From Escherichia coli (GTDB lineage: Bacteria > Pseudomonadota > Gammaproteobacteria > Enterobacterales > Enterobacteriaceae): 64,000 nt of DNA. The stretch lies in NCBI RefSeq assembly GCF_044324785.1, contig NZ_CP172127.1. The stretch is one strand, 5' to 3'. The position numbers were made by a program, and so were the translations under genes. Position 1 is the stretch's first letter, and each line of letters opens with the position of its first letter. A model generated the notes under the pieces. That model did not search any database, was not told where the DNA came from, and saw only the letters and a program-made list of their open reading frames with translations. Positions 2,383-4,275 of the stretch are shown here, piece after piece.

Positions 2383-4275
2383 TTACATCACCAGACGGCG
2401 AATGTCAGACAGCGTGTTGTTAATGATGGTAATGAAACGGGCACCATCAGCACCGTCGATCACGCGGTGGTCGAAGGAGAGAGAAATCGGCAGCATCAGA
2501 CGCGGCACGAACTCTTTACCATTCCACACTGGCTCCATCGCGGACTTGGAAACGCCGAGGATAGCCACTTCCGGCGCGTTCACAATCGGCGCGAAGTGGG
2601 TAGTACCCAGGCCGCCGATGCTGGAGATGGTGAAGCAACCGCCCTGCATTTCGCCCGCAGTCAGCTTACCGTCACGCGCTTTCTTAGAAATAGTCATCAG
2701 CTCACGAGACAGCTCGATGATGCCTTTCTTGTTGACGTCTTTGAATACCGGAACCACCAGACCGTTCGGGGTATCCACCGCCACACCGATGTTGATGTAT
2801 TTCTTCAGGGTCAGACGCTGACCGTCTTCCGACAACGAACTGTTGAAGCGAGGCATCTGCTCAAGAGCTGCAGCAACCGCTTTCATGATGAAGACAACCG
2901 GGGTGATCTTCACATCCAGCTTACGTTTCGCCGCTTCTTCGTTCTGCTGTTTACGGAACGCTTCCAGCTCGGTGATATCGGTTTTGTCGAAGTGAGTAAC
3001 ATGCGGGATCATCACCCAGTTACGGCTCAGGTTCGCACCAGAGATTTTCTGGATGCGGCCCAGTTCCACTTCTTCGATTTCACCAAACTTGCTGAAGTCC
3101 ACTTTAGGCCACGGCAGCATGCCTGGGATACCGCCGCCAGTTGCCGCCGGAGCTGCTTCTGCACGTTTGATAGCTTCTTTCACGTAAGCCTGAACGTCTT
3201 CGCGCAGGATACGACCTTTACGGCCAGTGCCCTTCACTTTCGCCAGGTTAACGCCAAACTCGCGTGCCAGACGGCGGATCAGCGGAGTCGCGTGAACGTA
3301 AGCGTCGTTTTCAGCAAATTCAGATTTGCCTTCCGCTTTCGCAGCCGGAGCTGCTGCCGGAGCTTCAGCTTTTGCTGCCGGAGCCGGCGCTGCCGCTTCC
3401 TGTTTCGCAGGAGCTGCCGCAGGCGCTGCGCCTTCAACTTCGAAGATCATAATCAGCGAACCGGTTTTCACTTTATCGCCAACGTTGACTTTCAGTTCCT
3501 TCACGACGCCTGCAAACGGAGCCGGAACTTCCATAGAAGCTTTATCGCCTTCTACGGTGATCAGTGACTGTTCAGCGGCAACTTTGTCGCCCACTTTCAC
3601 CATCACTTCGGTCACTTCAACTTCGTCACCGCCGATATCCGGAACGTTAACTTCTTTCACGCCAGCCGCTGATGCAGGGGCCGCTGCCGGAGCCGCTTCC
3701 TGTTTAGCCGCCGGAGCTGCCGCGCCTGCTTCACCCGCGACTTCGAAGACCATAATCAGCGAGCCGGTAGACACTTTGTCACCCACGTTCACTTTGATCT
3801 CTTTCACGGTGCCTGCAAACGGAGCCGGAACTTCCATAGAAGCCTTGTCGCCTTCTACGGTGATCAGCGACTGTTCAGCTTCAACTTTATCGCCAACTTT
3901 CACCAGGATTTCGGTCACTTCAACTTCGTCGCTGCCGATATCCGGAACGTTAACGTCTTTTGCCGCTGCAGCCGCTGGAGCTGCTGCCGGAGCGGCTTCT
4001 TTCTTCTCTTCTGCCTGAGCAGGTGCAGCGTCTGCTGCACCGTCGGCGGAATCGAAAATCATAATCAGTGCGCCGGTCTGGGTTTTATCGCCAACAGAGA
4101 CTTTGATCTCTTTAACGATACCCGCCTGCGGAGACGGAACTTCCATAGAGGCTTTGTCGCCTTCTACGGTGATCAGCGACTGTTCGGCTTCAACTTTGTC
4201 GCCCACTTTGACCAGGATCTCGGTGATTTCAACTTCATCAGCCCCGATGTCCGGTACTTTGATTTCGATAGCCAT
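2383..4275 (-). CDS. aceF: Dihydrolipoamide acetyltransferase (PDH E2) with three lipoyl domains
   Basis: 630 aa starting [47 protein letters not shown]. Three lipoyl domains separated by Ala/Pro-rich linkers, then the catalytic domain. Confidence 0.96.
3370..4275 (-). repeat. Three tandem ~300-bp intragenic repeats encoding the aceF lipoyl domains
   Basis: Near-identical DNA blocks are visible (ggtgatcagcgactgttcagc... recurs). They produce the long repetitive antisense ORF 3326..4018. Confidence 0.85.

What the first reader, a model, noticed from the sequence alone, without database searches (positions are those of the whole stretch)
3370..4275. Triplicated lipoyl-domain repeats in aceF
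Three ~300-bp near-identical blocks encode the three lipoyl domains. They generate long repetitive antisense ORFs and are known substrates for recombinational domain-number change. This is standard for E. coli aceF.
Basis: partly seen in the sequence, partly recalled or inferred. Interest (0 to 1): 0.12.

Follow-up and report, generated by a model that had tools for sequence, protein, structure and literature searches.

The report
Three lipoyl-domain repeats in aceF
This is the textbook triple repeat at the start of the E. coli aceF gene, encoding the three swinging-arm lipoyl domains of pyruvate dehydrogenase; it is ordinary, although rare natural strains have lost or gained one copy by recombination between the repeats.

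Summary
The repeat is real. aceF (window 2383-4275, minus strand, 630 aa) begins with three tandem units of 309, 303 and 303 nt (window 3361-4275). Each encodes one lipoyl domain plus an Ala/Pro-rich linker. "Near-identical" is wrong: the units are 72-82% identical in DNA and 70-77% in protein, and the longest shared exact runs are 20-33 nt. The protein is canonical AceF/E2p (NCBIfam PRK11854, full-length match to PDB 7b9k), in the pdhR-aceE-aceF-lpd operon. The 230-aa repetitive antisense ORF exists but is most simply explained by composition. A census of 5,423 complete E. coli genomes found three domains in 5,411. Eight carry clean one-unit deletions (300-309 nt), four carry a 192-nt out-of-register deletion, and none has an expansion. 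Breakpoints fall mostly in the conserved tract around the lipoyl-lysine codon or in the linkers. Four-domain alleles, the reciprocal products, occur in draft E. coli assemblies and in Salmonella. An E. coli/Salmonella site-pattern test suggests sequence exchange between lip2 and lip3.

The parts
2383..4275 (-). aceF coding sequence (630 aa), the dihydrolipoyllysine-residue acetyltransferase (E2p) of the pyruvate dehydrogenase complex
   Evidence: ORF list; Pfam; NCBIfam PRK11854, 1102 bits; PDB 7b9k full length; annotated aceF in 5,423 E. coli genomes
3967..4275 (-). Repeat unit 1 (309 nt, aa 1-103): lipoyl domain 1 (core aa 2-77) plus Ala/Pro-rich linker 1
   Evidence: Unit definition and identities; repeat finders
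3664..3966 (-). Repeat unit 2 (303 nt, aa 104-204): lipoyl domain 2 (core aa 105-180) plus linker 2
   Evidence: best Pfam Biotin_lipoyl stretch is aa 107-176
3361..3663 (-). Repeat unit 3 (303 nt, aa 205-305): lipoyl domain 3 (core aa 206-281) plus the first part of linker 3
   Evidence: PDB 1qjo (innermost lipoyl domain) matches aa 206-284
4153..4155 (-). Lipoyl-lysine codon K41 (AAA) in the DKA motif of domain 1
   Evidence: DKA motif positions; codons
3844..3846 (-). Lipoyl-lysine codon K144 (AAG), domain 2
3541..3543 (-). Lipoyl-lysine codon K245 (AAA), domain 3
   Evidence: K245 is the dihydrolipoyllysine seen in the cryo-EM structure (PMC8421416)
3811..3843 (-). 33-nt tract in unit 2 that is exactly identical to window 3508-3540 in unit 3 (encodes [11 protein letters not shown]); junction of natural lip2/lip3 deletions and duplications
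   Evidence: Longest exact run; junctions in strain VTB97379v and loci L010, L012, L013
3508..3540 (-). Partner 33-nt tract in unit 3
4154..4185 (-). 32-nt tract in unit 1 that is exactly identical to window 3845-3876 in unit 2 (encodes [11 protein letters not shown]); junction of a natural lip2/lip1 duplication
   Evidence: junction in L014. The lip1/lip2 deletion of strain 01_3327 maps to the adjacent 18-nt tract
3845..3876 (-). Partner 32-nt tract in unit 2
3298..3360 (-). Rest of linker 3 (aa 306-326), with short Ala/Pro repeat motifs (33-nt periodicity) that continue the linker-like sequence beyond the third unit
   Evidence: TRF period 33 at 3330-3410; D2 family of 40-nt linker repeats; a 4-aa linker slip in strain 361 lies just upstream, in linker 3 at 3412-3423
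3190..3297 (-). Peripheral-subunit-binding domain (aa 327-362)
   Evidence: Pfam E3_binding; PDB 4qoy, 8oqj
2389..3081 (-). Catalytic acetyltransferase / core-forming domain (aa 399-629), includes the DHRVIDG motif
   Evidence: Pfam 2-oxoacid_dh, E 2.4e-80; PDB 4n72; translation
3326..4018 (+). 230-aa repetitive antisense ORF; best read as a by-product of the sense sequence, not a gene
   Evidence: ORF list. It lies in sense phase 2, where an antisense stop needs a Tyr codon after a codon ending in T or C, or a His/Gln codon after a codon ending in T. The first 320 residues contain no Tyr and no His
2338..3567 (+). 409-aa antisense ORF in the codon-opposed phase, overlapping unit 3; likewise a by-product
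   Evidence: ORF list; only 2 antisense stops (sense TTA/CTA/TCA codons) in this phase across the whole gene

Best explanation
The region is the 5' third of aceF. It encodes three tandem lipoyl domains, each an ~80-residue barrel carrying a lipoyl-lysine in a DKA turn and each followed by a flexible Ala/Pro-rich linker. Downstream lie the E1/E3-binding domain and the catalytic core domain. By established biochemistry of the family, the lipoylated domains act as swinging arms that carry acetyl groups and reducing equivalents between the E1, E2 and E3 active sites of the 24-mer complex. The DNA repeat is the trace of ancient tandem duplications and is now 72-82% identical. The most conserved ~60 nt surround the lipoyl-lysine codon. 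Because the units are direct repeats in the same reading frame, occasional misaligned recombination or replication slippage removes or adds exactly one unit, giving functional-looking two- or four-domain alleles. These alleles are rare, consistent with selection favouring three domains. Lip2 and lip3 also appear to exchange sequence in their central part. Shown here: the repeat, the domain identities, the gene context, the natural length variants and their junctions. Inferred: the molecular route of recombination and the selective reason for three copies.
For: Repeat. Domain and family identity. Operon lpd-aceF-aceE-pdhR. Census: 12 of 5,423 complete genomes have deletions of at least 136 nt between flanking anchors; none has an insertion of at least 65 nt. 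Junction mapping: in-register lip2/lip3 hybrids (C2, Rb-50, C4, VTB97379v; 303 nt; tracts 20-57 nt), a lip1/lip2 hybrid (01_3327; 309 nt; 18-nt tract), linker-to-linker excision of lip2 (FDAARGOS_1283, 300 nt; DSM 103263, 306 nt; tracts 11 and 13 nt), and an out-of-register 192-nt deletion (strain 463 group). All ORFs are intact. Alleles encoding the same two-domain protein differ by 12-22 nt, so the backgrounds are diverse. The exact variant proteins recur on 454, 182, 22, 17, 6 and 2 contigs. Four-domain alleles have junctions in the same 32-, 33- or 57-nt tracts, carry internally perfect 335-338-nt duplications, and differ by 18-31 nt between carriers of the same protein. Lip2 and lip3 share the same codon at 50 of 63 identical-residue sites against 32.1 +/- 3.7 expected from codon bias (z = 4.8). 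The E. coli/Salmonella quartet gives 9 paralog-shared sites for d2/d3 against 0 and 1 for the other pairs, and no fixed d2/d3 difference in core nt 85-164. Literature: three domains, 73% identical, acting redundantly (PMC8421416); one domain suffices after in vitro deletion (Guest 1985, cited in PMC5013485); lowering domain content reduces growth rate and yield (title of Dave, Guest & Attwood 1995, reference 74 of PMC10579247).
Against: No result contradicts the identification. Three caveats apply to the variation. First, some database variants look like assembly artefacts: P0074 has permuted hybrid domains, and several ENA metagenome proteins mix species. A junction at the longest shared exact tract is also what a de Bruijn graph error would produce. 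Second, the four-domain E. coli alleles were seen only in draft or metagenome assemblies, never in the 5,423 complete genomes. Third, the quartet signal for gene conversion rests on 9 sites with a noise class of 3. The codon-sharing excess could also reflect local codon or mRNA constraints.
Confidence: 0.97

Rival explanations
1. The domain-number variants are all assembly or annotation artefacts, and aceF is invariant at three domains in nature.
For: Permuted or chimeric lipoyl regions occur in some ENA and draft assemblies (P0074, P0033, P0038, P0047 and Citrobacter P0069). Most junctions coincide with the longest shared exact k-mers. No four-domain allele is present in complete E. coli genomes.
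Against: The 12 deletions are in finished circular chromosomes. All are precisely in-frame, including linker-to-linker junctions with only 11-13 nt of identity, which assemblers would not confuse. The same deletion is shared by sets of strains with similar names and near-identical chromosome sizes, which look related (447/439/446/463; 01_3327/03_3013). The exact proteins recur on up to 454 contigs from several sources. Salmonella four-domain alleles lie on 4.5-4.7-Mb contigs. Repeats of 72-82% identity are not normally collapsed.
Confidence: 0.07
2. The long repetitive antisense ORF (3326-4018 +) is a real overlapping gene whose repeats are themselves under selection.
For: It is 230 codons long and internally repetitive.
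Against: Its openness follows from the sense sequence. In that phase a stop needs a Tyr codon after a codon ending in T or C, or a His/Gln codon after a codon ending in T. The lipoyl region has no Tyr or His in its first 320 residues. It starts with TTG, its repeats mirror the sense repeats, and no Rfam family or other feature maps there. Other highly expressed genes in the window (aceE, lpd) show equally long antisense ORFs. No independent test of expression or conservation was run.
Confidence: 0.02
3. The repeats are kept near-identical by continuous concerted evolution, so the array is a highly unstable, contingency-like locus.
For: Lip2 and lip3 show excess codon sharing and paralog-shared substitutions.
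Against: Unit identity is only 72-82%. Lip1 shows essentially pure positional orthology with Salmonella lip1: 93.4% identity, and 36:0 and 33:1 orthology against concerted sites. 99.8% of complete genomes keep three units.
Confidence: 0.03

Closest known systems
E. coli K-12 AceF (E2p; UniProt P06959 from memory; PDB 7b9k, 1qjo, 4n72)
   Same: Same gene, same length (630 aa), same architecture of three lipoyl domains, PSBD and catalytic domain. The DNA is about 98.3% identical to K-12-type strains and the PDB chain matches over the full length.
   Different: Only allelic differences. For example, residue 202 in linker 2 is Ser here where the other alleles examined have Pro. The aceF-lpd spacer lacks the ERIC-like insert found in K-12-type strains.
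Engineered E. coli AceF with one or two lipoyl domains (Guest et al. 1985; Dave, Guest & Attwood 1995)
   Same: The natural two-domain alleles found here (529-530 aa) have the same kind of architecture as the in vitro deletions, which retained enzyme activity (PMC5013485).
   Different: The alleles here arose spontaneously in wild isolates, at junctions set by sequence identity rather than restriction sites. Their fitness was not measured here.
Serratia symbiotica AceF with one or two lipoyl domains lost
   Same: Natural reduction of lipoyl-domain number in an enterobacterial aceF (PMC5013485).
   Different: That case is fixed in endosymbiont lineages undergoing genome reduction. In E. coli the variants are rare polymorphisms in free-living strains.
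E2 chains with other domain counts (one to three lipoyl domains, depending on species)
   Same: Same modular design, with the number of tandem lipoyl domains differing between species (PMC8421416; PMC6270654; PMC10579247).
   Different: The reviews consulted give one to three as the range. Four-domain natural alleles fall outside it, though they are rare.

Membership tests
AceF / E2p, pyruvate dehydrogenase dihydrolipoyllysine-residue acetyltransferase (NCBIfam PRK11854, TIGR01348) | Full-length match to the equivalog model above the curated cut-off | tested here: met
   NF008814 scores 1101.8 bits against a cut-off of 722, covering residues 1-630; TIGR01348 scores 1041.5 against 552
AceF / E2p | N-terminal lipoyl domain(s) with the lipoyl-lysine in a DKA motif | tested here: met
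   Three Biotin_lipoyl stretches; DKA at aa 40, 143 and 244
AceF / E2p | Peripheral-subunit-binding domain between the lipoyl domains and the core | tested here: met
   Pfam E3_binding at aa 327-362, E 1.9e-16
AceF / E2p | C-terminal 2-oxoacid dehydrogenase acyltransferase domain with the catalytic DHRxxDG motif | tested here: met
   PF00198 at aa 399-629, E 2.4e-80; '[12 protein letters not shown]' in the translation; PDB 4n72
AceF / E2p | Operon context with E1p (aceE) upstream and E3 (lpd) downstream | tested here: met
   aceE at 4290-6953 (-), lpd at 751-2175 (-), pdhR at 7114-7911 (-); annotations under the match
AceF / E2p | Lipoylation of the three lysines and acetyltransferase activity | not testable with these tools
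   Needs biochemistry; inferred from near-identity to the experimentally characterised E. coli protein
Hypervariable tandem-repeat (contingency-type) locus | High-identity repeats with frequent copy-number differences between strains | tested here: not met
   Units are 72-82% identical; 5,411 of 5,423 genomes show no large length change
Overlapping antisense protein-coding gene | An open frame not explained by sense-strand composition, with independent signs of expression | tested here: not met
   Openness is explained by the absence of Tyr and His codons and by codon usage. Expression is not testable here.

The most novel reading that the evidence does not exclude
Lipoyl-domain number in E. 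coli aceF is a real, recurrent natural polymorphism. Two-domain and four-domain alleles arise repeatedly by recombination, mostly in a ~60-nt tract around the lipoyl-lysine codon. Expansions are transient because they create perfect ~335-nt direct repeats. At least one two-domain allele (the 01_3327 type, seen on 454 contigs) appears to have persisted and spread, so three domains would not be strictly required in the wild. I found no paper in the searchable library describing this within-species variation.
Probability: 0.6. Interest if true: 0.3.

Novelty: already known. Interest (0 to 1): 0.12.

Why it matters
The triple lipoyl-domain repeat is a textbook feature of the E. coli pyruvate dehydrogenase complex, so this finding adds nothing new about the window. 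There is practical value. The repeat can mislead read mapping, assembly and automated annotation: PGAP labels an intact two-domain allele a pseudogene, and some metagenome assemblies scramble the domains. The modest scientific value lies in the census. Domain number is held at three in 99.8% of complete genomes, although the sequence can and does change copy number. That agrees with the old engineering result that fewer domains cost growth rate and yield. The census also supplies named natural two-domain strains in which this could be tested.

Tried and rejected
1. Counting domain variants from BLAST coverage of the repeat region alone failed. Every genome passed 80% coverage because pieces from different query units map onto the same record bases. 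I replaced it with the two-anchor query, which exploits the tool's joining distance.
2. Four literature searches for natural recombination or domain-number change in aceF found no within-species report. The chemostat paper PMC4350175 reports three low-frequency aceF alleles, but its tandem duplication is a 23-kb event elsewhere. I did not check whether those alleles lie in the repeat, where they could be mapping artefacts.
3. The protein homology search was meant to supply distant orthologs for a domain tree, but the list was dominated by E. coli. I used Salmonella and Citrobacter loci instead. The Citrobacter allele has scrambled hybrid domains and was left out of the quartet test.
4. I considered and rejected a real antisense gene and a hypervariable contingency-type locus.
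5. Rfam found nothing inside 3361-4275, and the repeat finder found no inverted repeats there.

Full report
**Observation**

The window carries lpd (751-2175), aceF (2383-4275), aceE (4290-6953) and pdhR (7114-7911), all on the minus strand. Inside aceF the repeat is unmistakable:
- Tandem Repeats Finder gives period 303, 2.7 copies, 80% matches, score 910 at 3440-4254.
- The repeat finder gives three 300-nt copies at 3377-3676, 3680-3979 and 3989-4288, the second and third at 80% and 67% identity to the first.
- In a self dot-plot, offsets 303, 309 and 612 carry 59, 35 and 27 shared 11-mers. No diagonal exceeded 3 in 100 shuffles.

In register with the protein, the units are aa 1-103, 104-204 and 205-305. 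These correspond to window 3967-4275, 3664-3966 and 3361-3663.

"Near-identical" is not right. Whole units are 76%, 72% and 82% identical in DNA and 77%, 70% and 77% in protein. The 76-residue domain cores are 74-86% identical. The longest exact shared runs are 32 nt (units 1/2), 20 nt (1/3) and 33 nt (2/3).

**What it is**

- Pfam finds three Biotin_lipoyl stretches, an E3_binding domain (aa 327-362) and the 2-oxoacid_dh catalytic domain (aa 399-629).
- NCBIfam equivalog PRK11854 scores 1102 bits against a cut-off of 722 over residues 1-630.
- The protein matches the E. coli E2p chain of PDB 7b9k over its full length. It also matches the innermost lipoyl domain 1qjo and the catalytic domain 4n72.
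- The DKA lipoyl-lysine motif occurs at aa 40, 143 and 244.
- The inter-domain linkers are 62-68% Ala+Pro and 63-73% G+C. They carry their own short repeats, the D2 family and the period-33 array.

The window is an Escherichia chromosome segment. Its aceF is at most 99.3% identical to any of 5,426 complete E. coli genomes and about 98.3% to K-12-type strains. The best 12-kb match is 99.2%, to strain N3. The exact AceF protein is nevertheless common, seen on at least 1,000 contigs.

**Mechanism**

By established knowledge of 2-oxoacid dehydrogenase complexes, each lipoylated domain is a swinging arm. It shuttles the acetyl group and reducing equivalents between the E1, E2 and E3 active sites. 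E. coli E2p has three such domains per chain, hence 72 per 24-mer. They are about 73% identical and act redundantly (PMC8421416). This is inferred here from near-identity to the characterised protein; it was not tested.

**Antisense ORFs**

The 230-aa ORF at 3326-4018 (+) exists and is visibly repetitive. It lies in sense phase 2. An antisense stop there needs a Tyr codon after a codon ending in T or C, or a His/Gln codon after a codon ending in T. The first 320 residues of AceF contain no Tyr and no His, and that phase has only 7 antisense stops in the whole gene.

The 409-aa ORF at 2338-3567 (+) is in the codon-opposed phase. There, stops correspond to the rare sense codons TTA, CTA and TCA, and the gene has only two of them. 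aceE and lpd show similar antisense ORFs. These ORFs are most simply explained as by-products of the sense sequence.

Coverage of the repeat alone could not separate variants. Its weakest hit, however, exposed a 64-aa in-frame deletion in strain 463.

I then built queries from two concatenated flanking anchors. The search tool joins the two pieces only if they lie within half the query length plus 500 nt.
- With 300+300-nt anchors (wild-type gap 936 nt, joining limit 800 nt), only loci shortened by at least 136 nt are joined. That was 12 of 5,423 genomes.
- With 500+500-nt anchors (limit 1,000 nt), all 5,423 joined, so none has an insertion of 65 nt or more.

Small linker variants of about 12 nt also occur.

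Junction mapping of the 12 deletions:

| Strains | Deletion | Junction | Shared tract |
|---|---|---|---|
| C2, Rb-50, C4 | 303 nt | in-register lip2/lip3 hybrid | 20-57 nt, encoding [19 protein letters not shown] |
| VTB97379v | 303 nt | in-register lip2/lip3 hybrid | the 33-nt exact run |
| 01_3327 (and 03_3013, by span) | 309 nt | lip1/lip2 hybrid | 18 nt |
| FDAARGOS_1283 | 300 nt | linker 1 to linker 2, excising lip2 | 11 nt |
| DSM 103263 | 306 nt | linker 1 to linker 2, excising lip2 | 13 nt |
| 463 (and 447, 439, 446, by span) | 192 nt | out of register, between the VGDKV-coding sites of lip2 and lip3 | 5 nt |

All reading frames are intact. The four lip2/lip3 alleles differ from one another by 12-22 nt and carry different aceF-lpd spacer forms. 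The 12 genomes therefore represent at least six junction classes.

The exact variant proteins recur on 454, 182, 22, 17, 6 and 2 contigs. A separate 90% cluster holds 305 distinct sequences, and the members listed are E. coli AceF of ~529 aa.

**Expansions**

The homology search ranked longer proteins first:
- E. coli P0032 (733 aa) reads L1-[L2N/L1C]-L2-L3.
- P0036, P0042 and P0045 (727-731 aa) read L1-L2-[L3N/L2C]-L3. These are the reciprocal products of the deletions.

Their DNA junctions mostly fall in the same 32-, 33- or 57-nt tracts; one (L015) maps to a 5-nt tract. The duplicated 335-338 nt are perfectly identical within an allele. Carriers of the same protein differ by 18-31 nt, which indicates independent, recent events.

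Salmonella has four-domain alleles on 4.47- and 4.68-Mb contigs.

The asymmetry in complete E. coli genomes is 12 deletions against 0 duplications, binomial p = 0.0005. A likely reason, by inference, is that an expansion creates a perfect direct repeat that should revert readily, whereas a deletion cannot revert.

Some database entries look like artefacts. P0074 has permuted hybrid domains, and several ENA proteins mix species. Counts from draft assemblies therefore need care.

**History of the repeats**

- At residues identical between domains, lip2 and lip3 use the same codon at 50 of 63 degenerate sites. Codon bias alone predicts 32.1 +/- 3.7 (z = 4.8). Lip1/lip2 and lip1/lip3 give z = 2.2 and 2.6.
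- Against Salmonella, lip1 is 93.4% identical to its ortholog and about 75% to its paralogs. Lip2/lip3 paralog identity (85.5% and 87.7%) matches lip3 ortholog identity (86.8%).
- Quartet site patterns give orthology-supporting against paralog-shared sites of 36:0 (d1/d2), 33:1 (d1/d3) and 13:9 (d2/d3, with 3 noise sites). No fixed d2/d3 difference lies in core nt 85-164, the zone where the crossovers map.

This suggests limited gene conversion between lip2 and lip3 on top of an old triplication. The sample is small.

**Comparison with what is known**

- The three-domain architecture and its redundancy are textbook (PMC8421416).
- One domain suffices after in vitro deletion (Guest 1985, cited in PMC5013485).
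- Lowering domain content reduces growth rate and yield (title of Dave, Guest & Attwood 1995, listed in PMC10579247).
- Serratia symbiotica has naturally lost one or two domains (PMC5013485).
- Reviews state a range of one to three domains.

Four searches found no report of within-species domain-number polymorphism in E. coli. The library lacks most subscription-journal papers, so this is not proof of novelty.

**Verdict**

The finding is real, correctly interpreted and already known. The only error is "near-identical". Interest is low. The census of natural two- and four-domain alleles is a small addition that would need read-level confirmation.

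Noticed in passing
window 219-488 (+), within ORF 270-680: A 96-nt tandem repeat (2.4-2.8 copies, 82-90% matches) lies in the C-terminal part of the neighbouring DUF3300/yacH gene, which runs off the window start. 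Product lengths in other strains are 572, 585 and 617 aa. 617 minus 585 is 32 aa, exactly one unit, which suggests copy-number polymorphism.
   Followed up: partly
window 2176-2382 (aceF-lpd spacer): The window has the short 207-nt spacer. K-12-type strains such as strain 361 have 324 nt: about 30 nt here are replaced by an element of about 150 nt whose core resembles, from memory, the ERIC/IRU repeat (CCCCAGGAGCTTACATAAGTAAGTGACTGGGGTGAGGGCG). Both spacer forms occur among the variant aceF alleles.
   Followed up: partly
L009 1801-3384 (E. coli 01_3327, NZ_CP074961.1): PGAP annotates the two-domain aceF as a pseudogene ('missing N-terminus'). The ORF is intact from its ATG, and the exact protein is seen on 454 contigs.
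   Followed up: yes
L001 3001-4701 (E. coli 463, with 447, 439 and 446): A 192-nt out-of-register in-frame deletion joins lip2 residue 163 to lip3 residue 228 via the VGDKV-coding sites. The predicted aberrant domain has two DKA lipoylation turns. Its functional consequence is unknown.
   Followed up: partly
proteins P0074, P0069, P0033, P0038, P0047: These AceF sequences have permuted hybrid lipoyl domains or mixed-species segments. They are probably mis-assemblies through the shared exact tracts, which is a caution for metagenome-derived protein databases.
   Followed up: partly
proteins P0067 and P0070: Other in-frame AceF length variants: a 50-aa duplication spanning the peripheral-subunit-binding domain (680 aa) and a 38-aa partial duplication inside lip2 (668 aa).
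   Followed up: no
window 24538-24627 (-): An Rfam gathering-level hit to PssrA ('plasmid-encoded Shigella sRNA A', 105 bits) lies between two large minus-strand ORFs that I take, from gene order, to be ftsA and ftsZ. It is an odd family name for a chromosomal site. Other Rfam hits: tp2 at 6956-7069 (+), STnc40, naRNA4, Leu leader, SgrS and a TPP riboswitch.
   Followed up: no
whole window, tested on 1-12000: The best match to any of 5,426 complete E. coli genomes is 99.2% (strain N3), and most are about 98-98.7%. The window therefore comes from an Escherichia/Shigella lineage poorly represented in that collection.
   Followed up: partly
PMC4350175 (chemostat evolution of E. coli): The paper reports three low-frequency aceF alleles persisting together. 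I did not check whether they map inside the lipoyl repeats, where cross-mapping of short reads could mimic low-frequency SNPs.
   Followed up: no
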